Positions 37,128 through 50,955 of a stretch of DNA of 64,000 nucleotides are shown one piece after another. A program made the position numbers and the translations under genes. The notes beneath the pieces are model-generated. The model had not been told where the DNA came from. It worked only from the letters and a program-made list of their open reading frames with translations, and searched no databases. Numbering within the stretch: position 1 is the stretch's first letter; every line of letters begins with the position of its first letter. The stretch spans positions 148,266 to 212,265 of the forward strand of contig JALGZK010000001.1 of NCBI GenBank assembly GCA_025774935.1, in the 5' to 3' direction. This stretch comes from a bacterium. Lineage in GTDB: Bacteria > Joyebacterota > Joyebacteria > Joyebacterales > Joyebacteraceae.

Positions 37128-37214
37128 GGAGGGCTAGACCTAACTGGTAAGGCAGCGGTCTTGAAAACCGCCGGGCGCAAGCCCTTGGGGGTTCGAGTCC
37201 CTCGCCCTCCGCCA
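37128..37214 (+). tRNA. tRNA-Ser (anticodon TGA)
   Basis: Cloverleaf folded by hand: acceptor GGAGGGC/GCCCTCC, anticodon loop CTTGAAA, long variable arm, T-loop GGTTCGAGTCC, 3' CCA encoded. Confidence 0.9.
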
Positions 37215-37292
37215 GTATCGGAGCATGCCAGAGGGGACACGCAGGGCCGGCGCGCGGAGCGGACTCCGCGCGCGTCAGGCATCGAGGACACC

Positions 37293-37382
<90 letters not shown>

Positions 37383-37392
37383 GAAGACGACC

Positions 37393-37469
<77 letters not shown>

Positions 37470-38162: not shown

Positions 38163-38191
38163 TTGACACGTCAAGAATCCGGGCATACTGT
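38163..38191 (+). promoter_or_regulatory. sigma70-like promoter (TTGACA-17-TACTGT)
   Basis: -35 at 38163-38168, 17-nt spacer, -10 at 38186-38191. It lies 83 nt upstream of the ATG at 38274. Confidence 0.45.
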
Positions 38192-38273
38192 TGGCGCGTT
38201 GGGTGGTTCCGGCTCAAGAAACCGATCCCGGGCGGGGAGAACGCCCGGCCAGGAAGCGGAGGAGGAGGACGGA

Positions 38274-39527
38274 ATGAAGAGGACTCGTTTGCTGCTGCTC
38301 AGCCTCGTGGCCGTCGGCACGGTGCTGTTCTTCGTCGGTTGTGACCTTCTCGAAGAGGATGAGATCCCCGTCAGCGCTGATCTTCTGTTCGCGAGCGGCA
38401 TGAACGATCTTCAGGGAGAGCTGACCGAGCTGAACCTCGAGAACCCGATCTGGGACTGGGATGTGAACGTCTCCGGTCCCCTCAGCGACTTCGAGGACGC
38501 GCTCGATGCCGACCCCGAGCACTGCGGGGCCCTCCTGATGGCGGGCCTGACGAGGCTCATCGAGGTAGTGACGGATCCCGACCTCGCGGACATCCTCGAG
38601 GACATCTTCGGCGGCGATGTCCGGGCATCGCACAAGTTCCCGCTCATGTGGTACGTGGACGTTCCCGGCGCCGTCGATGCGAAGCGGGTGCTCCAGTCGC
38701 TCGACCACAGGCGCCAGGACCCGTTCGAGATCTCACTCCTTCAGGAGTACATCGAGGACGAGGTCATTCCGGCGCTCGAGTACACCGAAGGCAACCTGAT
38801 GGACTTCCAGGACCTCGACTGCGAGGTCAACCTGGAGATCCCGATCGAGGACGCCTCGCGCGACACCATGTGGATGCTCGTGGATCTCGACGCGACCGAC
38901 GTGGCCTTTGCGATGGCCCCGCTGCACGCGATCATGGGCGCCCTGGAGATGATCGTCGCGTACAACATGGACGTGACTCAGGGCCAGACGCTCGAGGAGC
39001 TCCTCACGACGGATCCGGACTTCCTGAGTCTCAGGGCCGGAAGCCACATGCCGACCGCCTTCGGCTACTTCAGCGACATTCACGACGACCTGAGCGACGC
39101 GTGCACGATGCTCCAGAACGAGACGGGCGATCAGACGTTCGACCTCATCACGGAGCTCTACTGGGACGGGGGGATGTACATCGTCCTCGAGGACATGTTC
39201 GGACCGGCGCCGTGTGACACGATCCGGGCGTACGCGGACCTGATCTACGACGCGCTGAACGAGCCGATCGTCATCAACCCGTCCGACGAGGAGCCGGGAG
39301 CTCCGGACATCGACATCACGATCGACGTCTCGCAGTTCTTCAACGATCCCCTCGATCCGCTGACCGACTACTTCCCGGAGTTCGTACCGGTCTGGCCGGA
39401 CCCGAACGACCTGGACGGTGCGTTCGTCGAGCCGGTGAACTTCCCGGACCCGACGTTCGAGGGAATCCTCCCGGGCATGTCGAACGCCGAATGGCAGGAG
39501 ATCATCGACTGGCTGGACGAGACGTAG
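38274..39527 (+). CDS. Highly acidic lipoprotein of unknown function (417 aa)
   Basis: ATG 38274 is preceded by GGAGGAGGAGGA. Lipobox (LFFVGC|DL). The whole mature protein is extremely D/E-rich with several Cys residues. It has its own promoter and a downstream hairpin. Confidence 0.65.
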   Translation: MKRTRLLLLSLVAVGTVLFFVGCDLLEEDEIPVSADLLFASGMNDLQGELTELNLENPIWDWDVNVSGPLSDFEDALDADPEHCGALLMAGLTRLIEVVTDPDLADILEDIFGGDVRASHKFPLMWYVDVPGAVDAKRVLQSLDHRRQDPFEISLLQEYIEDEVIPALEYTEGNLMDFQDLDCEVNLEIPIEDASRDTMWMLVDLDATDVAFAMAPLHAIMGALEMIVAYNMDVTQGQTLEELLTTDPDFLSLRAGSHMPTAFGYFSDIHDDLSDACTMLQNETGDQTFDLITELYWDGGMYIVLEDMFGPAPCDTIRAYADLIYDALNEPIVINPSDEEPGAPDIDITIDVSQFFNDPLDPLTDYFPEFVPVWPDPNDLDGAFVEPVNFPDPTFEGILPGMSNAEWQEIIDWLDET

Positions 39528-39598
39528 CCCAGCCGCCGCGCTCTGTCCGATCGAGCGAGAGGCCGGACCGCCGGGGGAAACTTACGGCAGCAGTTGCA

Positions 39599-39628
39599 GA
39601 CGCGGGCATCGACGACGGTGCCCGCGTC
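39599..39628 (+). terminator. Perfect 10-bp GC-rich hairpin (GACGCGGGCA … TGCCCGCGTC) downstream of the acidic lipoprotein gene
   Basis: Stem 39599-39608 pairs with 39619-39628, with a 10-nt loop. There is no U-tract, so it is a terminator or RNA-stability element rather than a canonical intrinsic terminator. Confidence 0.4.
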
Positions 39629-39675
39629 GTCCGTTCCGGGAGTGCAATGTTACGGTCCTCGGGCACGAGGTGTGC

Positions 39676-39704
39676 TTGACTTGGAGGACGCGCGCACATA
39701 GGAT
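39676..39704 (+). promoter_or_regulatory. sigma70-like promoter (TTGACT-17-TAGGAT) for the SbcD-like/SbcC-like/CHAT operon
   Basis: -35 at 39676-39681, 17-nt spacer, -10 at 39699-39704. GGAGG at 39731-39735 precedes the TTG start at 39741. Confidence 0.45.
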
Positions 39705-39740
39705 TTCAGACGAAAGCGCACTGCCCTCCCGGAGGCACCG

Positions 39741-40883
39741 TTGCCCGTTCTCGTCCACACCTCAGACGTCCACGTCGGCGCGCCGCTCGGCTGGCTCGGC
39801 GACCGCGCGGCCGAGCAGCGAGAGCAGATCCGGCGCACGTTCGCATCGATCGTCGACCTTGCGCTCGAGGAGAAGGCCGACTGCCTTCTGATCGCCGGTG
39901 ACCTCTTCGATTCCGGCGTCCCGCCGTCATCGGACGTCCGGCTCGTCCTGCAGGAGATCGGGAGGTTCACGAGTCAGTCGGAGGGTGCGGCGGTCATCCT
40001 CCCGGGCTCGCACGACTCGCTCGGGACCTCGTCCGTCTACACGAGCTACGGCGATGAGTTCGCGCGCGTCCCCCGGCTCTTCATCCTGGGCGACGACGAT
40101 CGGACGACCGTCGATCTCGCGGCCCCCGGAGTCTCAGTGCGAGGGACCGCCCTCCGCTCGAACCGCTCCACGTCCCATCAGCTAGCGGGCCTCGCGCCGA
40201 GCGCCGACCTTCCGTTCAGCGTCGCCGTCGCGCACGGCTCCGTGAACGTGGTCCCTGTGGATCCGGACGATCATCCCATCGAGCTCGACGAACTTGCCGC
40301 GCGGGGGTGGGCGTACTTCGCCCTGGGGCACTGGCACTCCTGGCGGGAGATCGAAGGCGCGTCGGCGCCGGCGGTGTACGCGGGGGCGCCGGAGATCATG
40401 GCAGTCGATCAGACGGGGGCCGGGTACGTCGCGGTCGTCCACCTCGGCACGGACGGAGCGACGGTCCGGAAGCACCGCGTCGGTGTGAGGTCGGTCGCAG
40501 GACTCGCCGTCGACGTGGGCGAGACGGCGGACGCCTCGGCGTTCGCCGCACGCGTGCGCGAGACCGTCTCCCCGGACCCCGACACCATACTGAGGCTGGC
40601 TCTCTCGGGTCTTCTGGCCGTCGACTCCGGGTTCGACGAGTCGACCTTCACGGAGGCCATCCGGGGCGACTACTTCCACGTCGTGCCGGGCGACCGGACG
40701 TACCACCTCCGGCTCGACGGCGACGACCTGGCGCGTCTGCCGGAGCGGCTCGTGATCGGCCAGTTCGCGCGCCTGATGAAGAGGCAGCTGGACGAGACGA
40801 CGGGCGAGGAGCAGAGGCGCGAGATCGAGGACGCACTCCAACTCGGCGTCGCGCTCCTGCAGGGGAAGGACGTTCTCCGGTGA
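39741..40883 (+). CDS. Mre11/SbcD-like calcineurin-fold metallophosphoesterase (nuclease)
   Basis: Metallophosphatase motifs I-V (VHTSDVHVG; IAGDLFD; ILPGSHD; VAHGSV; ALGHWHSW). TTG start. Confidence 0.8.
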   Translation: MPVLVHTSDVHVGAPLGWLGDRAAEQREQIRRTFASIVDLALEEKADCLLIAGDLFDSGVPPSSDVRLVLQEIGRFTSQSEGAAVILPGSHDSLGTSSVYTSYGDEFARVPRLFILGDDDRTTVDLAAPGVSVRGTALRSNRSTSHQLAGLAPSADLPFSVAVAHGSVNVVPVDPDDHPIELDELAARGWAYFALGHWHSWREIEGASAPAVYAGAPEIMAVDQTGAGYVAVVHLGTDGATVRKHRVGVRSVAGLAVDVGETADASAFAARVRETVSPDPDTILRLALSGLLAVDSGFDESTFTEAIRGDYFHVVPGDRTYHLRLDGDDLARLPERLVIGQFARLMKRQLDETTGEEQRREIEDALQLGVALLQGKDVLR

Positions 40884-43057
40884 GGATCCGTCGCGTCAGA
40901 CTTGTGAACTTCCGGCGGTTCCGCGACCGCGAGGTCAGCTTCGGCCCGGGACTGAACCTGATCGTGGGTCCGAACGAGGCCGGCAAGAGCACGATCCTAG
41001 ACGGAATCGCGACGGCTCTCTTCTGCGACGTCGCGTCGACGGCGAAGGCGGTGAAGGATCTCGAGCGCTGGGGCTCGAAGGGCGCCATGCGCCTCGAGCT
41101 CGACTTCGAGCACGACGGCGAGATCTACCGCCTGCGGAAGGACTTCGGGGCTCGTCGGGCCGTGCTCGAGAAGGGGGACGGGTCCGAGACTCTCGGCGAC
41201 AGGGGAGAGGTTGAGGCCCGTCTTCGCGAGATGGTGGGATTTCGGGAGCAGCAGGCGTTCGAGTCGGTGGCGGCGGTCCGACAGGGAGAGCTCGCGGCTC
41301 TCGAGGGAAAGGGGGGGAAGTCGAGACGCTCGGATCTCCTTCCCATGATCGAGAAGAAGATGACGAGCTCGAGCGGGGCGACCGACGCGGCGGGGGTCAT
41401 CGGACGACTTGAGAAGTCGATCGCGGCAATGGGTGTGGGGGTCAAGCGCCTCGCCGACCGGCCGGGACCGATTCGATCGCTGATGGACCAGGAAGAGGAG
41501 CTCGCCGAGAGGATATCGAGGTCGGGTAAGGCGTGGGCCGACGCCGTGAGGACGCGGAAGGAACTGACGTCGGAGCGAGCAGATCTCGCGAAGGCGGAGC
41601 AGCGCCTCGAATCCATCGAGGGAATGCTCGAGTCGGAGGGTGCGAGGAGCAGGTACGTCGCGGAGCTCGAGGACGTGCGGCAGAAGCTCTCCCGGAACGC
41701 CTCCGAGGTCGGCAAGCTCCGGAAGCTCAAGACCGACATCGCCGAAGCCTACGAGGGCATCGACGGGACCCTCCCGGAGCTCGGCAAGACCGTGGAGGAA
41801 GCGAAGCGCGACTTCGATGCCGCGGGAGAGAGGATCGCGAAGCTCGAGGAGCGATCGCCGGCCGGCGATTGGAGGACCGCCTCGAAGCGACCGGGTGCCG
41901 CGGCCATCGTGCTCGGTGCCGCCGCGCTCGCGCTCTTCTTCGCGCCCGTCTACGCGCCGATCCCGCCGGGTGTGCGCCTGTGGCTCATCCTGGGCGGGGC
42001 CGCGCTCGGTGCGCTCACGGTCTACTTCTTCCGCAGGGGCGCCCGGCTATGGGGGTTCGCGCACGACATGCAGCGCGAGCTCGGGGAGAAGGAGAGGGCC
42101 GAGAGGTCGTACCGGGAGGCGCTCGGCGCTGCGGGCGTCTCCACGTACGAGGAGTACGGCCGCCTCGCCGCCAGGCAGCAGGAGCTCCACGCCAGCATCC
42201 AGAAGTGGAACGCGCTTCTGCAGGAACAGACGGGGGAGGGAGACGCCGACAAGTTCGAGGAGAGCTTGCTGACTGACGGCGCCGCCCTCGAGCGCCGCGC
42301 CGGTGAACTCGAGGAGAAGCTCGAGGAGAGCGGTGGCGCGGAGAACGTCCTGTCCCCTGTCGAGGCGGCGCGGCTGAGGAACGAGAGGAACGGACTGCTC
42401 GAGACGATCGACCGTCTGCGGAAGAGCACGATAGCGAAGGAGGTCCGGCTCGAGGAGGCGGCCGTGGACACGGCCCTGCCGGACCTGGAGGCGCGTCGTG
42501 AGAACGTCGCGCGCGAGCTCGCGCTCGTGCTCCGGAGGGAGCGCGTGCTGCGGCTCGCTCACGAGGGACTCCTCACCGCGCTCGACAGAACGAAGAGAGA
42601 GGCCTCGACGGCCCTTGCGCCGGTGGTGTCCCGCGTGCTGGGCGGAGTGACGCTCGGACGATACTCGGACGTCAGCGTTGCGACCGATCTCGAGTTCAGC
42701 GTGAAGAACCCGGACCCGGTCGAAGGTGCGCCTCCCACTCTCGGCGGGGACGAGCTCAGCGCCGGGACGATCGACCAGTTCTACCTGGCCGTCCGCTACG
42801 CGCTGCTCGAGTTCCTGTCCGGACCGTGTGGAGCGCCGTTCCTGCTCGACGACGTGCTGGTGCACTTCGATCCGGAGAGGCGGGATGCCGCGATCGGCGT
42901 CCTGCGGGAGATCGCGCGCCAGCGGCAGGTCATCATGCTCTCCTGTGAGAACCACGCTGCCGAATCGGCGGACGAGGTCGTCCGGCTGGACGGAGTGAAC
43001 GCGGGGAGCGCGTCGCCCGGAGGCGAGGCGCCTCAGGAGGTGCCGCGTGAGAGGTGA
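40880..43057 (+). CDS. SbcC/Rad50-like SMC-type ATPase (AAA_23) with a two-helix transmembrane hairpin in the middle of the coiled coil
   Basis: GTG 40880 overlaps the upstream stop (GTGA). Walker A (GPNEAGKST), a long coiled coil, signature/D-loop region (LSAGTIDQFYLAVRYALLEF … FLLDDVLVHFD). Two hydrophobic segments (AAIVLGAAALALFFAPVYAPI / LWLILGGAALGALTVYFF) sit where SbcC normally carries its CxxC zinc hook. Confidence 0.75.
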   Translation: MRIRRVRLVNFRRFRDREVSFGPGLNLIVGPNEAGKSTILDGIATALFCDVASTAKAVKDLERWGSKGAMRLELDFEHDGEIYRLRKDFGARRAVLEKGDGSETLGDRGEVEARLREMVGFREQQAFESVAAVRQGELAALEGKGGKSRRSDLLPMIEKKMTSSSGATDAAGVIGRLEKSIAAMGVGVKRLADRPGPIRSLMDQEEELAERISRSGKAWADAVRTRKELTSERADLAKAEQRLESIEGMLESEGARSRYVAELEDVRQKLSRNASEVGKLRKLKTDIAEAYEGIDGTLPELGKTVEEAKRDFDAAGERIAKLEERSPAGDWRTASKRPGAAAIVLGAAALALFFAPVYAPIPPGVRLWLILGGAALGALTVYFFRRGARLWGFAHDMQRELGEKERAERSYREALGAAGVSTYEEYGRLAARQQELHASIQKWNALLQEQTGEGDADKFEESLLTDGAALERRAGELEEKLEESGGAENVLSPVEAARLRNERNGLLETIDRLRKSTIAKEVRLEEAAVDTALPDLEARRENVARELALVLRRERVLRLAHEGLLTALDRTKREASTALAPVVSRVLGGVTLGRYSDVSVATDLEFSVKNPDPVEGAPPTLGGDELSAGTIDQFYLAVRYALLEFLSGPCGAPFLLDDVLVHFDPERRDAAIGVLREIARQRQVIMLSCENHAAESADEVVRLDGVNAGSASPGGEAPQEVPRER

Positions 43058-44549
43058 TCGCTGCCCGCGCTGCGGGGCGCGTCTCGAGCTCGTCGGTGAG
43101 CGGTGGGACTCTGGAGACGGTCGAATAGGCCGCACGCTGCGCTGCGGCAGTTGCGGCGGCGTGTTCGACGCACGAGGAGGCGGTCCCGGGGGCCAACGAG
43201 GCCGGCCTGCCCCGGCCGCGTGCGCCGCAGCGGCGCTCCTCTGGGCCGTGGTCCTCCTCGCCGTTCTGTGGGTGGTTCTGAGACTGCTCCCGTACGGTGG
43301 GCGAGCGCAGGTCTACCGTGCGGCGTCTGCGTTCGTGGAGGGCTTCCTCCACCCGCTGTGGTTGGCGGCGCTCGTCCTCGCCGGCGTCGCGCTCTTCCTG
43401 TGGAAGCGGCGGGCGTCTCGCGTGGAGCTGGCGCCGGCCGCGGCGGTGGCGCCCGACGTCCATCTTCGTGCCGAGCCGCCCGGGAAGATCACCGCAGTGA
43501 TCTCCGACTCGCGTGGGGCGGCGGTGCGGGACTTCGTCGTCGAGCGGAGCCCTGAGGCCGAGGAGCGCATACTCGCGGGCCTCCGCGAGCTGGCCGCCAG
43601 GAGCGCCGCCTTCGACCACGCGCGGGAGGGCGGAGCGACGGACCGTACCGCGTCCCCCGAGGAGGTGGCGGAGACGCAGCGCCGGATCTACTCCCTCGGG
43701 CTCGAGATCGGCGTGTCGCTTCTGGGAGGCGACTCGGGAGCGGGGCCCAGGATCGCCGATCTGCCGGGCGATCATCTGCTGCTCAGGATCCAACCCGAGC
43801 TCTCGCGCATTCCCTGGGAGCTCCTCGTGCCGCGCCCCGGGGGGCAGTTCCTGTGGCAGCTCTTCCACACGTCCCGACAGATCCGCACGGAGACCGCCGG
43901 ACGGACGGCGGGAGCGAGACGGTGCGCTCCCCTCAGGGTGCTGCTCATGGCGAACCTCGAGGCCGGACGCTCCGGCCGCGATCTTCCGCACGCCGAGCGC
44001 GAGGCGGCCGAACTGCTCGAGCTCGCTGCGTCGCGCCCCGACCTCCTCAAGGTCGAGAGGAAGTCGCCGAGGACGCACGCGGAGTTCGCGACACTCCTCT
44101 CGGAGGGATTCGACGTCGTCCACTTCGCGGGTCACTCGCTCGGTAGCCACGCGGGGGCGGGGTGGGATCTCGGTGAGGGGGAGGGTATCACCCTCGACGC
44201 ACTCGGACCCTGTCCGGAACGGACCCCTTCGCTCGTCTTCGCGAACACGTGCGGCACGGACGGCGGCGATGTGGGAGCGGAGAGCCGCTCCTGGGACGCG
44301 GCCCGTCACTTCCTCGAGTGGGGCGTCCAGGCATACCTCGGGACGCTCTGGGACCTTCACGACGGCGGGAGCGCGAGGTTCGCCGGCGTCTTCTACCGGC
44401 GGCTCGCCGCGGGCGCCACGCTCGCGGCGGCGGTCTCGGCGGCGCGCTCGGCACTCCTCGGCGTCGAGCCCGTCACCTGGGCGAACTACGTCCTGTACGG
44501 GGACCCCGCGCTCGTCGTAGCGGCCGCCTCCGGGCCGATTCGGTCGTAA
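43047..44549 (+). CDS. Zinc-ribbon + 2TM + CHAT-domain (caspase-like) protein
   Basis: GTG 43047 is preceded by AGGAGG and overlaps the upstream gene by 11 nt. N-terminal CPRC…CGSC zinc ribbon, two TM helices, a CHAT domain with a His (VVHFAGHS) and Cys (LVFANTCGTDGG) dyad. Confidence 0.75.
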   Translation: MRGDRCPRCGARLELVGERWDSGDGRIGRTLRCGSCGGVFDARGGGPGGQRGRPAPAACAAAALLWAVVLLAVLWVVLRLLPYGGRAQVYRAASAFVEGFLHPLWLAALVLAGVALFLWKRRASRVELAPAAAVAPDVHLRAEPPGKITAVISDSRGAAVRDFVVERSPEAEERILAGLRELAARSAAFDHAREGGATDRTASPEEVAETQRRIYSLGLEIGVSLLGGDSGAGPRIADLPGDHLLLRIQPELSRIPWELLVPRPGGQFLWQLFHTSRQIRTETAGRTAGARRCAPLRVLLMANLEAGRSGRDLPHAEREAAELLELAASRPDLLKVERKSPRTHAEFATLLSEGFDVVHFAGHSLGSHAGAGWDLGEGEGITLDALGPCPERTPSLVFANTCGTDGGDVGAESRSWDAARHFLEWGVQAYLGTLWDLHDGGSARFAGVFYRRLAAGATLAAAVSAARSALLGVEPVTWANYVLYGDPALVVAAASGPIRS

Positions 44550-44641
44550 AGCCCGTCCGGGGCCGACGACTGCCCCGCCGTGACGCTCGTACTCCCGCGA
44601 AGAAGACCGGGCTCCCGAACGACTGTTGTATGAGGAGAGGA

Positions 44642-45274
44642 ATGTCCGCCTTGGCGAGCCGTGGAAAGATCGGTGCCGACGATGCGCGCATGATCGACCG
44701 CCTGAGGGCCGGCGAGTCCGAGGCCTGGGAGGCGTTCGTGGAGCGCTATCGGAAGCTCATCTACAGCGCAATCGTGCGATCGAACGCTCGCTTTCGTGCG
44801 GAGTGGGACGAGACGGCGATGGAGGAGATCTTCCAGGAAGCGGTCTTCAAGCTCCTGCGGAGGAACGGCAGAGCGCTCGCGTCCTGGAAGGGCGACTGCC
44901 GCCTCGAGACCTGGATCTACCGGATCGTGCGGAACGTCTGCATCGACGTACTGAGGAAGCGGTCGCGGCGCCGGGAGTCCGACGAGCTCCCAGAAGACGG
45001 TGAAGGTCGCGCGGTCGCGGGAACGCCACGCGGACCGGGGACGCCGGAGAACAGGGATCTCAGGATATCCCTCGAGCAGGCGATCGACCGCTCGCTGTCA
45101 TCGAAGGAGGCGCTCGTGGTCCGACTGATCTACTTCGAGGGGTTCACGTACCGGGAGGTCGCGGAACGCATGGGCGTGAGCGTGGGCGCGATGAGCGGTC
45201 TGGTCTTCCGCGCGCTCGCGAAGCTCCGCACGGACGGCGGAGTGAACAGGGAGTGGGAAGGGGAACGAGGATGA
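44642..45274 (+). CDS. ECF (sigma-70 family group 4) RNA polymerase sigma factor
   Basis: ATG 44642 is preceded by GAGGAGAGG. Sigma region 2 (…FQEAVFKLLRR…) and a region 4 HTH (…FTYREVAERMGVSVGAMSGLVFRALAKLR). Confidence 0.8.
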   Translation: MSALASRGKIGADDARMIDRLRAGESEAWEAFVERYRKLIYSAIVRSNARFRAEWDETAMEEIFQEAVFKLLRRNGRALASWKGDCRLETWIYRIVRNVCIDVLRKRSRRRESDELPEDGEGRAVAGTPRGPGTPENRDLRISLEQAIDRSLSSKEALVVRLIYFEGFTYREVAERMGVSVGAMSGLVFRALAKLRTDGGVNREWEGERG

Positions 45275-46149
45275 CGAAGGACGGATGTCCTGCGGGAGAA
45301 AAGCTCCTGGGACTCGTGCGGGACGCTCTCGACGACGGGGCGTCGAGTCGCGTCCGGGCGCACGTGAGTTCGTGCGAGGCGTGCCGGGAGCGAGCCGCCG
45401 GACTCGAGGAGCTCGTCGGACTGCTGGAACGCGCGGCGACGGAGCCGCTTCCTGACGATCTCGAGCCCTCCCGGGCGGCCTGTCCCGATCCCGAGCTCGT
45501 CGCGGCTTACGCGGACGGCTCATCGGACGAACACGCGTCCGCCCTCGTCGAGCGACACCTCGCAGGATGCGCTTCCTGTCTCGCCGAGGTCGCCGACCTT
45601 TGGCGCCTCTCTTCCGCCGGGAGCCCAGTCGACGCGCCAGACCGAGCGGTCAGCGCGGCAATCGCGCGTCTCGAGTCGGAGGCGCGGACCGCGATCGTAC
45701 GGTGGGCAGGCGCGACCGTCTCCGTGGTGAAGGACTTCGCGCGGTCCCAGGCGGAGGCCCTCGAAGGAGCTGGCCGAGGCGCGCACGAGCTCGCGCCCGC
45801 GTTCGCGCGGGGGAGCGACGAAGCCGTGCTGCTCTCCTGGCGCGGCGACGACGATCTCCTGCTCGAAGGCAGGATCGACATCCGAGGAGGAGGGCGTCCC
45901 GCCCTCACGGGGAGACTGACGCGTCTCGGGAGCCCCGATCTCAGCCTCTCCGCTGCCATGAGCGGGGACGGGGAGCGGCACGGCCCCGAGTCGCTGGACT
46001 CCGACGGGCGGTTCGGGCCCTGGGCCCTCGCCCGAGGCCAGAACACCCTTCGCGTCACTGGCAGGACCGTCGGCGAGCGGGGGCTCTCGCTGACGATCGA
46101 GATCACCGAGGACAACGCCGAGGATCCGACCGAGATCCCGGCCGAGTAG
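45271..46149 (+). CDS. Anti-sigma factor with two ZAS-type HxxxCxxC motifs
   Basis: ATG overlaps the sigma gene stop (ATGA). Motifs HVSSCEAC and HLAGCASC are present. There is no obvious TM segment, so it is a cytoplasmic ZAS-like anti-sigma. Confidence 0.6.
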   Translation: MTKDGCPAGEKLLGLVRDALDDGASSRVRAHVSSCEACRERAAGLEELVGLLERAATEPLPDDLEPSRAACPDPELVAAYADGSSDEHASALVERHLAGCASCLAEVADLWRLSSAGSPVDAPDRAVSAAIARLESEARTAIVRWAGATVSVVKDFARSQAEALEGAGRGAHELAPAFARGSDEAVLLSWRGDDDLLLEGRIDIRGGGRPALTGRLTRLGSPDLSLSAAMSGDGERHGPESLDSDGRFGPWALARGQNTLRVTGRTVGERGLSLTIEITEDNAEDPTEIPAE

Positions 46150-46443
46150 GGCCGCATCGAGGATTCCTCCTGAATCACTCCGCGGCCTCTTGAGCCCGTC
46201 CGGGCCGCTTTGAGCACACGCGCAGGTTCCTTCCTCTATATCACATGACATCCACTCTCACGTGCCGGACGGCCGGCTGAGCCCGCCATCGTGGCACACG
46301 ACTTGCATTTAGGGTGCGCACACGAGGTCTCTCGGGCGCGTGACCCGGAGGGGGTCGCGCGATTGAGAGGAACCGCCTTTCCCACGGGTGGTCCGGAGAC
46401 GCCTCGGCGCGCGCGGGTCGAGAGGGTCTCGGGGGGTTGCACG

Positions 46444-50305: not shown

Positions 50306-50396
50306 GGTGGGGTGACGGAGCTGGTCGATCGTGGCGGTCTCGAAAACCGTTGTACCCCTTGGGGTACCGTGGGTTCGAATCCCACCCCCACCGCCA
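50306..50396 (+). tRNA. tRNA-Ser (anticodon CGA)
   Basis: Acceptor GGTGGGG/CCCCACC, anticodon loop CTCGAAA, long variable arm, GGTTCGAATCC T-loop, CCA encoded. Confidence 0.9.
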
Positions 50397-50406
50397 GAAC
50401 ACCCGC

Positions 50407-50497
<91 letters not shown>

Positions 50498-50529
50498 GCA
50501 CAAGGAACGCATTCGTCACACCTCAGGAT

Positions 50530-50605
50530 GGGGATGTAGCTCAGTTGGGAGAGCGCTGCCTTCGCAAGGCAGAGGTCGGCGGTTCGAGCCCGCTCATCTC
50601 CACCA
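50530..50605 (+). tRNA. tRNA-Ala (anticodon CGC)
   Basis: GGGGATGTAGCTCAGTTGGGAGAGCGCTGCCTTCGCAAGGCAG… with the G3:U70 Ala identity pair and CCA encoded. Confidence 0.9.
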
Positions 50606-50670
50606 GATTCCCTCGGGGCCCGCTCGCGTCCTGTGAGTCGGGCCCCGGGTGACAGAATCCCCGGAGGGTC

Positions 50671-50955
50671 TTTCGCTCTGGTGCGCTAGACGGGGAACTA
50701 GCGGTGCCCTGTGACCCGCAATCCGCTACAGCGGGGTCGAACATCCACACGAGGCCTTTCACCGTCGACAGCGAGCGCGGACAAGTAGCGTCGAAGGCCA
50801 GGTCCCGCGCAACCGAGTCCGGTGAAGCCGGTCAGGGCCGGGAGGCAGCAGCCGTAAGCCGGTTCCTCGGTGTGCCGCGGGGAAGCTTGGCTGGAGCCAA
50901 CTGGCCGCGTGACCTTCGGTGGTGGGGGTCGACGTGGACGCGTGCCAGAGCGAAG
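50671..50955 (+). ncRNA. ffs: Signal recognition particle RNA, long (Bacillus-type, ~285 nt) form
   Basis: Domain IV is conserved against E. coli 4.5S RNA (GTCAGGGCCGGGAGGCAGCAGCC…GTGTGCCGCGGGGAAGCTTGGCTGG vs GUCAGGUCCGGAAGGAAGCAGCC…GUGUGCCGGGAUGUAGCUGGCAGG). A 13- to 16-bp terminal helix pairs 50671-50686 with 50940-50955. The canonical position upstream of dnaX supports the call. The ends are approximate. Confidence 0.7.

What the first reader, a model, noticed from the sequence alone, without database searches (positions are those of the whole stretch)
39676..44549. Promoter-led, translationally coupled operon: Mre11/SbcD-like nuclease, membrane-inserted SbcC/Rad50-like ATPase, zinc-ribbon/TM/CHAT caspase-like protein
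A sigma70-like promoter (TTGACT-17-TAGGAT) precedes three genes whose starts overlap the preceding stops (GTGA at 40880; an 11-nt overlap at 43047 with AGGAGG). This implies strict co-expression. Gene 1 has all five calcineurin-like nuclease motifs. Gene 2 is an SbcC/Rad50-type ATPase; where the zinc-hook CxxC normally sits at the coiled-coil apex it has two hydrophobic helices, so it is predicted to be a membrane hairpin. Gene 3 combines a C4 zinc ribbon, two TM helices and a CHAT protease domain with an intact His/Cys dyad. CHAT caspase homologs appear in known anti-phage and conflict systems (type III CRISPR Craspase, CBASS, NTPase-based conflict systems). SMC/Rad50-like ATPases pair with effectors in Lamassu and Wadjet. 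I am not aware of a described system that pairs a membrane-anchored SbcCD-like nuclease complex with a membrane CHAT protease. The module is candidate membrane-associated DNA-sensing with proteolytic signalling, possibly abortive infection. Alternatively it is a divergent YhaO/YhaN (SbcEF)-type repair pair that recruited a protease.
Basis: partly seen in the sequence, partly recalled or inferred. Interest (0 to 1): 0.8.

Follow-up and report, generated by a model that had tools for sequence, protein, structure and literature searches.

The report
SbcEF-like pair beside CHAT–sigma module
The three genes are real, but they look like two ordinary chromosomal modules sitting side by side: a known type of membrane-anchored DNA-repair nuclease/ATPase pair, and a caspase-like protease that probably controls the neighbouring sigma/anti-sigma switch, rather than a new anti-phage system.

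Summary
Three same-strand genes follow a sigma70-like promoter: a Metallophos nuclease, a Rad50-like ATPase with a central two-helix hydrophobic hairpin, and a zinc-ribbon/2-TM/CHAT protease with an invariant His/Cys dyad.

1. The nuclease/ATPase pair belongs to the widespread YhaO/YhaN (SbcF/SbcE) family. The hydrophobic hairpin in place of a zinc hook is a family trait. Outside this phylum the pair occurs in seven independent chromosomal contexts without any CHAT gene.
2. The triad is conserved only within Candidatus Eisenbacteria. There the whole ~20 kb housekeeping neighbourhood (nifS to dnaX) is syntenic, so this is no defence island. There are no full-length PADLOC hits and no CHAT relatives on viral contigs.
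3. The closest CHAT relatives in other phyla sit in ECF sigma / soluble ZAS anti-sigma / CHAT cassettes: 41 of 59 loci, and never with SbcEF. In Eisenbacteria the CHAT gene is likewise followed directly by an ECF sigma and a homologous soluble anti-sigma.
4. The ATPase–CHAT overlap is seen in only 2 of 19 scorable relatives.

Best reading: an SbcEF-type repair pair lies next to a CHAT/ECF-sigma/anti-sigma signalling module. A functional link between the two is not excluded but is unproven.

The parts
39661..39676 (+). Conserved GGCACG-N4-xTGC element. It reads as a sigma54-like -24/-12 element or as a palindromic operator, and directly abuts the -35 hexamer.
   Evidence: Present at the same place upstream of g1 in nearly all Eisenbacteria loci, although the flanking sequence has diverged. 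Inside the window alone, a 2-mismatch match to TGGCACGNNNNTTGCW is not above chance.
39676..39704 (+). Sigma70-like promoter TTGACT-17-TAGGAT upstream of g1.
   Evidence: Only such site in 39300-46400, with 0.1 expected. TTGACT-17-TA(G/C)GAT or TGGGAT is conserved in L008, L024, L026 and L027.
39741..40883 (+). g1: Mre11/SbcD-like (YhaO/SbcF-type) calcineurin-like phosphoesterase, 380 aa.
   Evidence: Pfam Metallophos 3.9e-9. NCBIfam SbcD/Mre11 models hit below their cut-offs. PDB sequence hits are SbcD and Mre11. Motifs DxH, GDLFD, GSHD, HG and GHWH.
40880..43057 (+). g2: YhaN/SbcE-type Rad50-like ABC ATPase, 725 aa. Its start overlaps the g1 stop by 4 nt.
   Evidence: Pfam AAA_23, AAA_27 and SMC_N. 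Both Rad50 head halves match in the PDB. Walker A, signature motif, Walker B (DD) and Q683 are invariant across the family. JGI names the identical protein 'uncharacterized protein YhaN'.
41888..42028 (+). Central two-helix hydrophobic hairpin of g2 (residues 337-383) at the coiled-coil midpoint, where Rad50/SbcC carry the zinc hook.
   Evidence: Kyte-Doolittle peaks of 2.21 and 1.66. A hydrophobic segment sits at the midpoint in all 47 close homologues and in most distant ones of 700-1070 aa. B. subtilis SbcE has a hydrophobic, insoluble 'unique central domain' and no CxxC (PMC2811018).
43047..44549 (+). g3: membrane-tethered CHAT (separase/caspase-fold) protease, 500 aa. Its start overlaps the g2 stop by 11 nt.
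   Evidence: Pfam CHAT 9.8e-25. AlphaFold pLDDT 82.6. Foldseek top hits are separase SPD, Craspase Csx29, DdvA and SAVED-CHAT.
43062..43154 (+). g3 N-terminal C4 zinc ribbon (C6, C9, C33, C36).
   Evidence: The CPRCGG...CxSCG motif is conserved in most full-length homologues. The AlphaFold model shows a three-stranded ribbon.
43203..43403 (+). g3 two-TM hairpin (residues ~53-119) with a short conserved loop. This topology puts both the zinc ribbon and the CHAT domain in the cytoplasm.
   Evidence: Hydropathy. Modelled helices 57-80, 83-100 and 103-124. KRRASR follows TM2. The topology itself is inferred.
43761..44504 (+). g3 CHAT catalytic domain. H363 lies at 44133-44135 and C402 at 44250-44252.
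   Evidence: Pfam CHAT covers residues 239-486. H359, H363 and C402 are invariant in 26 homologues.
44597..44623 (+). ECF-type promoter-like motif GCGAAGAA-N15-CGAC directly upstream of the sigma gene.
   Evidence: An exact match in the window. The same motif, or GCGAAGAA-N13-CGCGTC, lies at the same position in the Eisenbacteria loci aligned, sometimes inside the 3' end of g3.
44630..45274 (+). ECF sigma factor. The start codon is provisional: ATG at 44630 or 44642.
   Evidence: Pfam Sigma70_r2, Sigma70_r4, Sigma70_r4_2 and Sigma70_ECF. Conserved directly after g3 wherever the sequence extends past it, which is 23 of the 24 Eisenbacteria loci.
45253..46149 (+). Soluble anti-sigma factor with two tandem ZAS (HxxxCxxC) domains and no TM segment. 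It overlaps the sigma stop by 22 nt.
   Evidence: Pfam zf-HC2, two stretches. An HMM built from the anti-sigmas of CHAT cassettes in other phyla scores 72.7 bits here, against 21 bits for an unrelated ZAS anti-sigma. The absence of a TM segment was read directly from the translation. No hydropathy scan was run on this protein.

Best explanation
The region is part of a vertically inherited, housekeeping stretch of a Candidatus Eisenbacteria chromosome. It contains two juxtaposed modules.

Module A is g1 plus g2, a YhaO/YhaN (SbcF/SbcE)-type Mre11/Rad50-like nuclease-ATPase pair. In this family the coiled-coil apex is a membrane-inserting helical hairpin instead of a zinc hook. By analogy with B. 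subtilis SbcEF, it most likely processes DNA ends or double-strand breaks at the membrane.

Module B is g3 plus the downstream ECF sigma and its soluble tandem-ZAS anti-sigma. g3 is a membrane-tethered protease whose CHAT domain faces the cytoplasm. It most likely controls the sigma factor by cleaving the anti-sigma on an unknown signal, as in the protease/anti-sigma/sigma triads of Craspase-Csx30-CASP-sigma and CalpL-CalpT-CalpS, and as proposed for DdvA-DdvS.

In this genome g3 has become overlapped with g2. It is therefore co-expressed with the repair pair from the promoter at 39676, while sigma/anti-sigma keep their own ECF-type promoter.

Shown here: domain identities, the conservation of the hairpin, the synteny patterns and the cross-phylum CHAT-sigma linkage. 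Inferred: membrane topology, the protease substrate and the repair function.
For: Module A.
- Pfam AAA_27/AAA_23/SMC_N and Metallophos hits.
- The central hydrophobic hairpin is conserved in homologues down to about 22-28% identity.
- The SbcE paper describes the same hydrophobic central domain, no CxxC, and an adjacent SbcD-like YhaO.
- The g1/g2 4-nt overlap holds in every locus where both ends could be placed.
- The same two-gene unit occurs without CHAT in L003-5, L006/7+L090, L088, L089, L091, L092 and L093. Some of these lie next to Ku, AddAB-like or EndoIII genes.

Module B.
- Of the 59 closest non-Eisenbacteria CHAT loci, none has a g1/g2 homologue.
- 32 have a sigma hit 1-3.5 kb upstream on the same strand, against only 2 sigma hits in 715 kb of remaining flank.
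- By blastp clustering, sigma and anti-sigma are each present in 41 of the 59 loci, and only 43 of the 59 have at least 2.6 kb of upstream sequence.
- In those cassettes the middle gene is a TM-less ZAS anti-sigma, and the CHAT domain lies N-terminal to a single TM.
- The Eisenbacteria anti-sigma is specifically homologous to those anti-sigmas.
- The association survives a change in gene order: CHAT-sigma-antisigma here, sigma-antisigma-CHAT elsewhere.
- The g3 profile and model hit DdvA, the CHAT-bearing anti-sigma.

Context.
- Whole-region synteny from nifS to dnaX in loci where g2 is only 39-48% identical.
- tRNA and SRP RNA genes nearby.
- No full-length PADLOC hits.
- No CHAT relative on viral contigs.
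Against: Across the whole phylum g3 always lies between the two tightly coupled pairs, on the same strand. In the window there is no sigma70-like promoter or terminator between g2 and g3, so g1-g3 co-expression here is real.

g3 lacks the extracytoplasmic sensor domain that its relatives carry. Its input is therefore unknown and could come from module A.

No cleavage of the anti-sigma has been shown. The similarity between the sigma factors is only generic (22-30% identity).

I could not place the sigma in an ECF group. I also could not run the reciprocal search starting from the anti-sigma, because one search found close homologues only.
Confidence: 0.6

Rival explanations
1. One five-gene pathway. 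The membrane-anchored SbcEF-like complex senses DNA ends, DNA damage or incoming DNA at the membrane. It activates the CHAT protease through contacts between the two membrane hairpins. The protease then cleaves the soluble anti-sigma and releases the ECF sigma to switch on a response.
For: The order g1-g2-g3-sigma-antisigma is invariant on one strand in all Eisenbacteria loci with enough sequence, even where CHAT identity falls to 37-38%. g2/g3 overlap in the window and in L011. The window has no internal sigma70-like promoter or convincing terminator between 39704 and 46149. g3 has replaced the C-terminal TM plus periplasmic sensor of its relatives with a lineage-specific zinc-ribbon/2-TM anchor, found in only 9 clusters among 1.84 billion representatives. 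It therefore needs a different input. Both g2 and g3 carry conserved two-helix membrane hairpins.
Against: There is only one evolutionary instance, because the whole 20 kb region is syntenic, so adjacency carries no independent weight. Most relatives have 36-190 nt g2-g3 spacers. In one clade (L010, L012, L013, L017) these form strong GC hairpins with z of -4 to -6. SbcEF pairs elsewhere never have a CHAT or sigma partner, and CHAT cassettes elsewhere never have SbcEF. Sigma/anti-sigma have their own conserved promoter motif, which is absent upstream of g1.
Confidence: 0.17
2. One reading: a new anti-phage or abortive-infection system. A membrane SbcCD-like complex detects foreign DNA and a CHAT protease executes proteolytic signalling or cell death.
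For: CHAT proteases and SMC/Rad50-like ATPases both occur in known defence systems. The g2 N-terminal P-loop matches PADLOC models such as mad3, PtuA, LmuB and GajA. DdvA-DdvS and Craspase link CHAT and ECF sigmas to defence.
Against: The PADLOC matches cover only the first ~50-240 residues of g2, and g1 and g3 have no significant PADLOC hit. The locus is core and syntenic across the phylum, flanked by nifS, tRNAs, glnA, SRP RNA and dnaX. That is the opposite of the patchy, island-associated pattern of defence genes. There are no CHAT relatives in 2.9 million viral contigs, and g2 gives only generic head-domain matches there. TRF detected no CRISPR-like array in the window, and no Cas family appears among the Pfam-annotated genes of the syntenic loci L001/L002.
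Confidence: 0.05
3. g3 is a dedicated regulator or quality-control protease of the SbcEF-like complex, for example trimming the nuclease to keep its level low. It is unrelated to the sigma/anti-sigma pair, which is merely adjacent.
For: g2/g3 are co-expressed in this genome. The B. subtilis study noted that SbcF and SbcD fusion proteins are largely degraded in vivo. Both proteins are membrane-anchored.
Against: No SbcEF pair outside the phylum has such a protease. The closest CHAT relatives are consistently tied to sigma/anti-sigma instead.
Confidence: 0.06

Closest known systems
B. subtilis SbcE (YhaN) / SbcF (YhaO), COG4717 / Pfam AAA_27 (PMC2811018)
   Same: An SbcD/Mre11-like phosphoesterase gene immediately upstream of an SMC/Rad50-like ATPase. 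ABC head motifs are present. There is no zinc-hook CxxC. A hydrophobic central domain sits at the coiled-coil midpoint. The gene is chromosomal and single-copy.
   Different: The ATPase is shorter: 725 aa against 963 aa for B. subtilis YhaN (length from my own knowledge). Nuclease motif III is GSHD. There is no yhaM-like exoribonuclease downstream. Function in this phylum is untested.
Canonical SbcCD / Mre11-Rad50
   Same: The catalytic head architecture is shared. PDB sequence matches go to both Rad50 head lobes and to the SbcD/Mre11 nuclease domain.
   Different: There is no zinc hook. NCBIfam SbcC, SbcD, Rad50 and Mre11 equivalog scores fall far below their cut-offs. The apex is replaced by a predicted membrane hairpin.
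DdvA-DdvS of Myxococcus xanthus (PMC11506125)
   Same: An ECF sigma is controlled by a ZAS-type anti-sigma associated with a separase/Craspase-like CHAT protease domain with a His/Cys dyad. DdvA is among the PDB hits of g3 by both sequence profile and fold.
   Different: In DdvA the TPR-CHAT domain is fused to the anti-sigma and is periplasmic. Here the CHAT is a separate protein, predicted to be cytoplasmic and with no TPR hit, and the anti-sigma is soluble. DdvS drives a CBASS/CRISPR island, and no defence genes are linked here.
Craspase (Cas7-11/Csx29)-Csx30-CASP-sigma and CalpL-CalpT-CalpS
   Same: Cytoplasmic protease, soluble anti-sigma-like inhibitor and ECF-like sigma, with signal-activated cleavage relieving inhibition (PMC10028731; bioRxiv 10.1101/2024.05.08.593097). 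Csx29 is among the top structural matches of g3.
   Different: There is no CRISPR or cOA context and no SAVED or TPR domains. g3 is membrane-tethered, and its activating signal is unknown.
ECF sigma / ZAS anti-sigma / TM-CHAT (/ FadL-like OMP) cassettes of Desulfobacterota, Nitrospirota, Omnitrophota and Myxococcota (found here, L029-L087)
   Same: The closest CHAT domains (28-36% identity). The anti-sigma is homologous and TM-less. All are paired with an ECF sigma.
   Different: Gene order is sigma-antisigma-CHAT. The CHAT protein has a C-terminal TM plus periplasmic TPR or CsgG/LpoB-like domains, often an N-terminal cyclase domain, and often a FadL/TodX-like outer-membrane gene downstream. 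I found no experimental work on these. A review notes CHAT proteins in the genetic context of group ECF54 (PMC8999054).

Membership tests
YhaN/SbcE-YhaO/SbcF pair (COG4717, Pfam AAA_27) | N-terminal P-loop head matching AAA_27/AAA_23 above the Pfam gathering score | tested here: met
   AAA_27 scores 47.6 bits against a cut-off of 22. AAA_23 scores 62.9 bits against a cut-off of 27. JGI labels the identical protein YhaN.
YhaN/SbcE-YhaO/SbcF pair (COG4717, Pfam AAA_27) | C-terminal head half with signature motif, Walker B and D-loop | tested here: met
   S627, T630, D657, D664, R667 and Q683 are invariant across 20 divergent homologues. Rad50 C-terminal lobes align to residues 573-709.
YhaN/SbcE-YhaO/SbcF pair (COG4717, Pfam AAA_27) | Hydrophobic central domain instead of a CxxC zinc hook | tested here: met
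   Hairpin at residues 337-383 and no CxxC. The feature is conserved family-wide. It is described for SbcE in PMC2811018.
YhaN/SbcE-YhaO/SbcF pair (COG4717, Pfam AAA_27) | Adjacent upstream SbcD/Mre11-like phosphoesterase gene | tested here: met
   g1 is a Metallophos protein with a 4-nt overlap onto g2. The same arrangement is seen.
YhaN/SbcE-YhaO/SbcF pair (COG4717, Pfam AAA_27) | Role in double-strand-break repair or transformation | not testable with these tools
   Needs genetics in the organism or a heterologous assay.
Canonical SbcCD / Mre11-Rad50 | Zinc-hook CxxC at the coiled-coil apex | tested here: not met
   No CxxC anywhere in g2.
Canonical SbcCD / Mre11-Rad50 | Score above the NCBIfam equivalog or subfamily cut-offs | tested here: not met
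   Best Rad50 score is 110 bits against a cut-off of 700. SbcC scores 36 against 478. SbcD scores 61 against 77.65.
Known anti-phage defence systems (PADLOC: Lamassu, Wadjet, Gabija, Septu, MADS and others) | Full-length match of the components to defence-system HMMs | tested here: not met
   g2 matches only through its N-terminal P-loop region. g3 has no hit, and g1 has only one weak partial hit at E = 0.018.
Known anti-phage defence systems (PADLOC: Lamassu, Wadjet, Gabija, Septu, MADS and others) | Patchy distribution in variable defence islands or mobile elements | tested here: not met
   A conserved 20 kb housekeeping synteny block across the phylum. No CHAT relatives on viral contigs.
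CHAT / separase-type caspase-fold proteases | CHAT domain above the Pfam threshold, with a separase/Craspase-like fold | tested here: met
   CHAT scores 88 bits against a cut-off of 24. Foldseek gives separase SPD at 1.3e-11 and Csx29 at 5e-11 to 9e-10.
CHAT / separase-type caspase-fold proteases | Catalytic His/Cys dyad | tested here: met
   H363 (and H359) and C402 are invariant in 26 homologues.
Protease-controlled ECF sigma/anti-sigma modules (DdvA-DdvS, Craspase-Csx30-CASP-sigma, CalpL-T-S) | Conserved genomic linkage of the protease with an ECF sigma and an anti-sigma | tested here: met
   In Eisenbacteria, sigma follows g3 in 23 of 24 loci and anti-sigma is also found in 20. Both shortfalls are contig ends. 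In other phyla, 41 of 59 loci carry sigma and anti-sigma.
Protease-controlled ECF sigma/anti-sigma modules (DdvA-DdvS, Craspase-Csx30-CASP-sigma, CalpL-T-S) | DdvA type: CHAT fused to the anti-sigma and periplasmic | tested here: not met
   CHAT and anti-sigma are separate genes. The CHAT is predicted to be cytoplasmic. No TM segment was seen in the anti-sigma on reading its sequence.
Protease-controlled ECF sigma/anti-sigma modules (DdvA-DdvS, Craspase-Csx30-CASP-sigma, CalpL-T-S) | CRISPR/cOA association (Craspase and CalpL types) | tested here: not met
   No Cas families appear in the Pfam-annotated syntenic contexts. TRF found no CRISPR-like array in the window.
Protease-controlled ECF sigma/anti-sigma modules (DdvA-DdvS, Craspase-Csx30-CASP-sigma, CalpL-T-S) | The protease cleaves the anti-sigma and releases the sigma | not testable with these tools
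   Needs biochemistry or a reporter assay.

The most novel reading that the evidence does not exclude
In Eisenbacteria, a membrane-inserted Mre11/Rad50-like (SbcEF-type) complex has been wired as the sensor of a caspase-like protease / anti-sigma / ECF-sigma switch. DNA ends or damage detected at the inner membrane would be converted, through hairpin-hairpin contacts and CHAT-mediated cleavage of a soluble anti-sigma, into a transcriptional response. This would be a DNA-damage or DNA-uptake signalling route with no described counterpart.
Probability: 0.15. Interest if true: 0.8.

Novelty: new variant of a known kind. Interest (0 to 1): 0.42.

Why it matters
The finding removes a tempting false lead. 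A Rad50-like ATPase next to a CHAT protease looks like a defence system, but here it is a core, vertically inherited locus.

Two things are worth keeping.
1. The membrane hairpin at the apex of YhaN/SbcE-type Rad50 relatives is conserved across distant homologues from several independent genomic contexts. It has hardly been discussed since 2009. It implies a membrane-anchored DNA-end-processing machine whose biology is essentially unexplored.
2. The CHAT lead uncovered a widespread three- or four-gene cassette: ECF sigma, TM-less ZAS anti-sigma, transmembrane protein with a cytoplasmic CHAT domain, and often a FadL-like outer-membrane protein. It suggests a general way of activating ECF sigmas by caspase-like cleavage of a soluble anti-sigma. 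I found no experimental study of it.

The Eisenbacteria version is a compact variant that could be reconstituted in E. coli.

Tried and rejected
- **Reciprocal search from the window anti-sigma.** It returned only 8 close Eisenbacteria homologues because of the word-index limit. I could not ask whether distant anti-sigma homologues are CHAT-linked from that side. I substituted an HMM built from the cassette anti-sigmas, with a control.
- **Cluster-member names for distant ATPases.** No names were held, so there was no direct link to named Firmicutes YhaN.
- **Shared promoter motif upstream of sigma genes in the non-Eisenbacteria cassettes.** None was evident, so I could not tie the sigmas to one ECF group.
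- **Supplement of the ECF re-classification paper.** Not held, so ECF group assignment was not possible.
- **Significance of the sigma54-like motif inside the window.** Not above chance. Only its cross-locus conservation supports it.
- **Terminator-like site at 46289-46301.** It overlaps a perfect sigma54 consensus, and the number of such sites is no higher than in shuffles, so I do not treat it as an operon end.
- **Viral-contig scans.** No g3 relatives, and only generic Rad50-head matches for g2.
- **Defence-system reading.** Rejected on context and PADLOC results.
- **Canonical SbcCD reading.** Rejected because there is no zinc hook and NCBIfam scores are below cut-off.

Full report
**Observation**

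The window is 67% G+C. Three same-strand ORFs occupy the stated interval:
- g1, 39741-40883, TTG start, 380 aa
- g2, 40880-43057, GTG start, 725 aa
- g3, 43047-44549, GTG start, 500 aa

The g1 stop and g2 start share GTGA. The g3 start lies 11 nt before the g2 stop and 6 nt after an AGGAGG. TTGACT-17-TAGGAT at 39676-39704 is the only sigma70-like site between 39300 and 46400, against 0.1 expected from shuffles.

Domain calls:
- g1: Metallophos, 3.9e-9.
- g2: AAA_23, AAA_27 and SMC_N.
- g3: CHAT, 9.8e-25, plus a weak zinc-ribbon hit.

Hydropathy gives two adjacent hydrophobic helices in g2 (337-362 and 365-383) and two in g3 (53-86 and 96-119). In 26 g3 homologues, H359, H363 and C402 are invariant. 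An AlphaFold model (pLDDT 82.6, pTM 0.76) matches separase SPD, Craspase Csx29, DdvA and SAVED-CHAT.

The description is therefore accurate. The one correction is that nuclease motif III reads GSHD rather than GNHD.

**Where it comes from and what surrounds it**

Both g2 and g3 have identical entries on a 478,590-nt contig. Their close homologues (g2 39-68% identity, g3 41-59%) are mostly unnamed metagenomic proteins. The few that carry names, and most of the matching genome records, are Candidatus Eisenbacteria MAGs.

In two long contigs where g2 is only about 41-43% identical, the whole neighbourhood is collinear with the window. The order is: glnA, PPIase, cysteine desulfurase, Peptidase_MA_2, a hypothetical gene, g1, g2, g3, ECF sigma, zf-HC2 anti-sigma, GAF histidine kinase, GGDEF response regulator, dnaX, ybaB.

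A scan of 185,579 species-representative genomes with a g3 alignment gave 21 full-length loci. Every one with enough flank shows the same order, even where CHAT identity falls to 37-38%.

The window also carries tRNA genes at 37128-37469 and 50306-50605, and SRP RNA at 50681-50945. TRF found no CRISPR-like array.

This is a core, vertically inherited chromosomal segment, not a variable island. PADLOC models match g2 only through its first ~50-240 residues, and g1 and g3 have no significant PADLOC hit. No g3 relative exists in the viral-contig collection, and g2 gives only generic head-domain matches there.

**The nuclease/ATPase pair**

The central hydrophobic hairpin is not peculiar to this locus. 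All 47 close homologues have a hydrophobic segment at the midpoint of the protein. So do most distant ones (22-28% identity, 700-1070 aa; metagenomic, one named Candidatus Limnocylindrales). The Walker A, signature, Walker B (DD) and Q683 positions are invariant across them.

JGI names the identical protein 'YhaN', and Pfam AAA_27 scores above its threshold. The 2009 study of B. subtilis SbcE (YhaN) describes exactly this (PMC2811018):
- an SbcC-like SMC protein lacking CxxC;
- a 'unique central domain' whose first half is hydrophobic and insoluble;
- an adjacent SbcD-like nuclease gene, YhaO/SbcF;
- involvement in double-strand-break repair and competence, with localisation at the cell poles.

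Outside Eisenbacteria I examined seven independent genomic contexts of hairpin-bearing homologues: L003-5, L006/7 with L090, L088, L089, L091, L092 and L093. In most of them the ATPase starts 1-4 nt inside the end of an upstream gene. That gene is a Metallophos protein, except in L006/L007/L090 and L092, where it has no Pfam hit. In L093 the Metallophos gene ends 37 nt upstream. No CHAT gene lies within 6-10 kb in any of these contexts. Some lie beside Ku, AddAB-like or EndoIII genes.

g1 and g2 are therefore a new member of the known SbcEF (YhaO/YhaN) family. They fail the tests for canonical SbcCD/Mre11-Rad50: there is no zinc hook, and NCBIfam scores are far below cut-off.

**The CHAT protein**

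The zinc-ribbon/2-TM/CHAT architecture occurs only in the Eisenbacteria clade. A full HMMER pass of its first 240 residues over 1.84 billion representative proteins found just nine clusters, all proteins of 323-490 aa. Those I had already examined have this architecture, and the new ones were not inspected.

The next-closest CHAT domains (28-36% identity over residues ~235-490) come from 59 loci in Desulfobacterota, Nitrospirota, Omnitrophota, Myxococcota and others.
- None has a g1 or g2 homologue.
- 32 have an ECF sigma hit 1.0-3.5 kb upstream on the same strand. Only two other sigma hits occur in the remaining 715 kb of flank.
- By blastp clustering of the flanks, a sigma family and an anti-sigma family are each present in 41 of the 59 loci. 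Only 43 of the 59 have at least 2.6 kb of upstream sequence.

ORF maps and Pfam define the cassette:
- an ECF sigma of about 205 aa;
- a TM-less protein of 215-257 aa, usually with HxxxCxxC (zf-HC2);
- a CHAT protein in which the CHAT domain, often preceded by a nucleotide-cyclase domain, lies N-terminal to a single TM. This is followed by TPR or CsgG/LpoB-like domains.

In 29 loci a further conserved family lies nearby, usually just downstream. Four of five members tested are FadL/TodX-like outer-membrane proteins.

An HMM of the cassette anti-sigmas scores 72.7 bits on the window's anti-sigma, with two tandem ZAS domains and an alignment of about 107 residues. An unrelated ZAS anti-sigma scores 21 bits.

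The CHAT-sigma-antisigma association is thus conserved across phyla and survives a change of gene order. That is the classical signature of functional coupling. The CHAT-SbcEF association has a single evolutionary origin inside a fully syntenic block.

**Junctions and signals**

- g1/g2 overlap by 4 nt, and sigma/anti-sigma overlap, in nearly every locus that could be scored.
- g2/g3 overlap only in the window (-11) and L011 (-4). The other 17 scorable relatives have spacers of 36-190 nt. In one clade (L010, L012, L013, L017) these fold into strong GC hairpins with z of -4 to -6.
- g3 to sigma gaps run from about 11 to 90 nt.
- A motif, GCGAAGAA-N15-CGAC (or N13-CGCGTC), lies just upstream of sigma in the loci aligned. 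In the window it is at 44597-44623. It looks like the autoregulated ECF promoter and is absent upstream of g1.
- Upstream of g1, the sigma70-like hexamers are conserved in five loci.
- A GGCACG-N4-xTGC element (39661-39676 in the window) is conserved in nearly all loci. It may be a sigma54 -24/-12 element or an operator.

**Mechanism**

The best-supported reading has a confidence of about 0.6. An SbcEF-type, membrane-anchored DNA-end-processing pair sits next to a CHAT/ECF-sigma/anti-sigma switch.

In g3 the zinc ribbon and the CHAT domain are both predicted to be cytoplasmic (N-in, two TM, KRRASR after TM2). The anti-sigma has no hydrophobic segment on inspection, so direct cleavage of the anti-sigma is topologically plausible.

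Known precedents:
- Csx29 cleaves Csx30 to relieve CASP-sigma (PMC10028731).
- CalpL-CalpT-CalpS.
- The proposed CHAT-mediated autoproteolysis of DdvA (PMC11506125).
- A review notes CHAT proteins in the genetic context of ECF54 (PMC8999054).

The substrate, the signal and the repair function are all inferred.

**What remains open**

g3 has lost the extracytoplasmic sensor of its relatives and gained a lineage-specific anchor. It is always immediately downstream of the hairpin ATPase. In this genome it is co-expressed with that ATPase.

A five-gene pathway in which SbcEF supplies the input cannot be excluded. I put it at about 0.15-0.17. I rate the defence reading at about 0.05.

**Verdict**

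The locus is a new member of the SbcEF family plus a new variant of protease-controlled ECF sigma modules. Interest is moderate.

Noticed in passing
L029-L087 (for example L031 7601-13946, L060 7650-11812, L078 8352-10969): A widespread cassette in Desulfobacterota, Nitrospirota, Omnitrophota and Myxococcota. Its genes are an ECF sigma, a TM-less ZAS anti-sigma, a transmembrane protein with a cytoplasmic CHAT domain (often cyclase-CHAT-TM-TPR/CsgG/LpoB-like), and a further conserved family nearby in 29 loci. Four of five members of that family tested are FadL/TodX-like outer-membrane proteins. It looks like an envelope-to-cytoplasm signalling device that uses a caspase-like protease. I found no experimental description.
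   Followed up: partly
window 39661-39676 and 46292-46307: Sigma54-like -24/-12 elements. A GGCACG-N4-xTGC motif is conserved upstream of g1 across Eisenbacteria loci, and could equally be a palindromic operator. A perfect TGGCAC-N5-TTGCA lies upstream of the GAF histidine kinase / GGDEF regulator genes. The second one overlaps the only 'terminator-like' hit of the scan.
   Followed up: partly
window 44597-44623: GCGAAGAA-N15-CGAC motif conserved directly upstream of the ECF sigma gene in the Eisenbacteria loci aligned, in some lying inside the 3' end of the CHAT gene. It is probably the autoregulated ECF promoter and would make a ready reporter.
   Followed up: partly
window 45253-46149: The anti-sigma factor has two tandem HxxxCxxC (ZAS) domains and no transmembrane segment. 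The two domains look like an internal duplication. One Thermodesulfobacteriota cassette anti-sigma (L076) also has two motifs.
   Followed up: partly
L002, L010, L011 (g1 homologues); L006 8880-10004: In one Eisenbacteria subclade, nuclease motif V has lost its second histidine (GHQS, GHLR or GHLP instead of GHWH), and motif II reads GDLFH. In the L006 lineage, motifs III-V are degenerate and Pfam no longer detects Metallophos. The partner of the hairpin ATPase may be catalytically dead in some lineages.
   Followed up: no
L010 7578-7651, L012 9928-10001, L013 3290-3387, L017 5018-5091; L026 9865-10001: Strong GC-rich hairpins without a U-tract lie in the g2-g3 spacer of several relatives (z of -4 to -6 in the L010 clade). 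They could be terminators, attenuators or processing sites separating the repair pair from the CHAT gene. The window has none, because the genes overlap.
   Followed up: partly
window 38163-39527: A 454-aa acidic protein with an N-terminal hydrophobic segment lies directly upstream of the promoter. It is conserved at this position in most Eisenbacteria loci (30-48% identity) but missing in L026/L027. The syntenic homologue in L001 has no Pfam family on record. The window copy itself was not scanned.
   Followed up: no
window 37128-37469 and 50306-50945: Two tRNA clusters (Ser-Ser-Arg and Ser-Ser-Ala) and the large SRP RNA flank the locus. This fits a core chromosomal region.
   Followed up: yes
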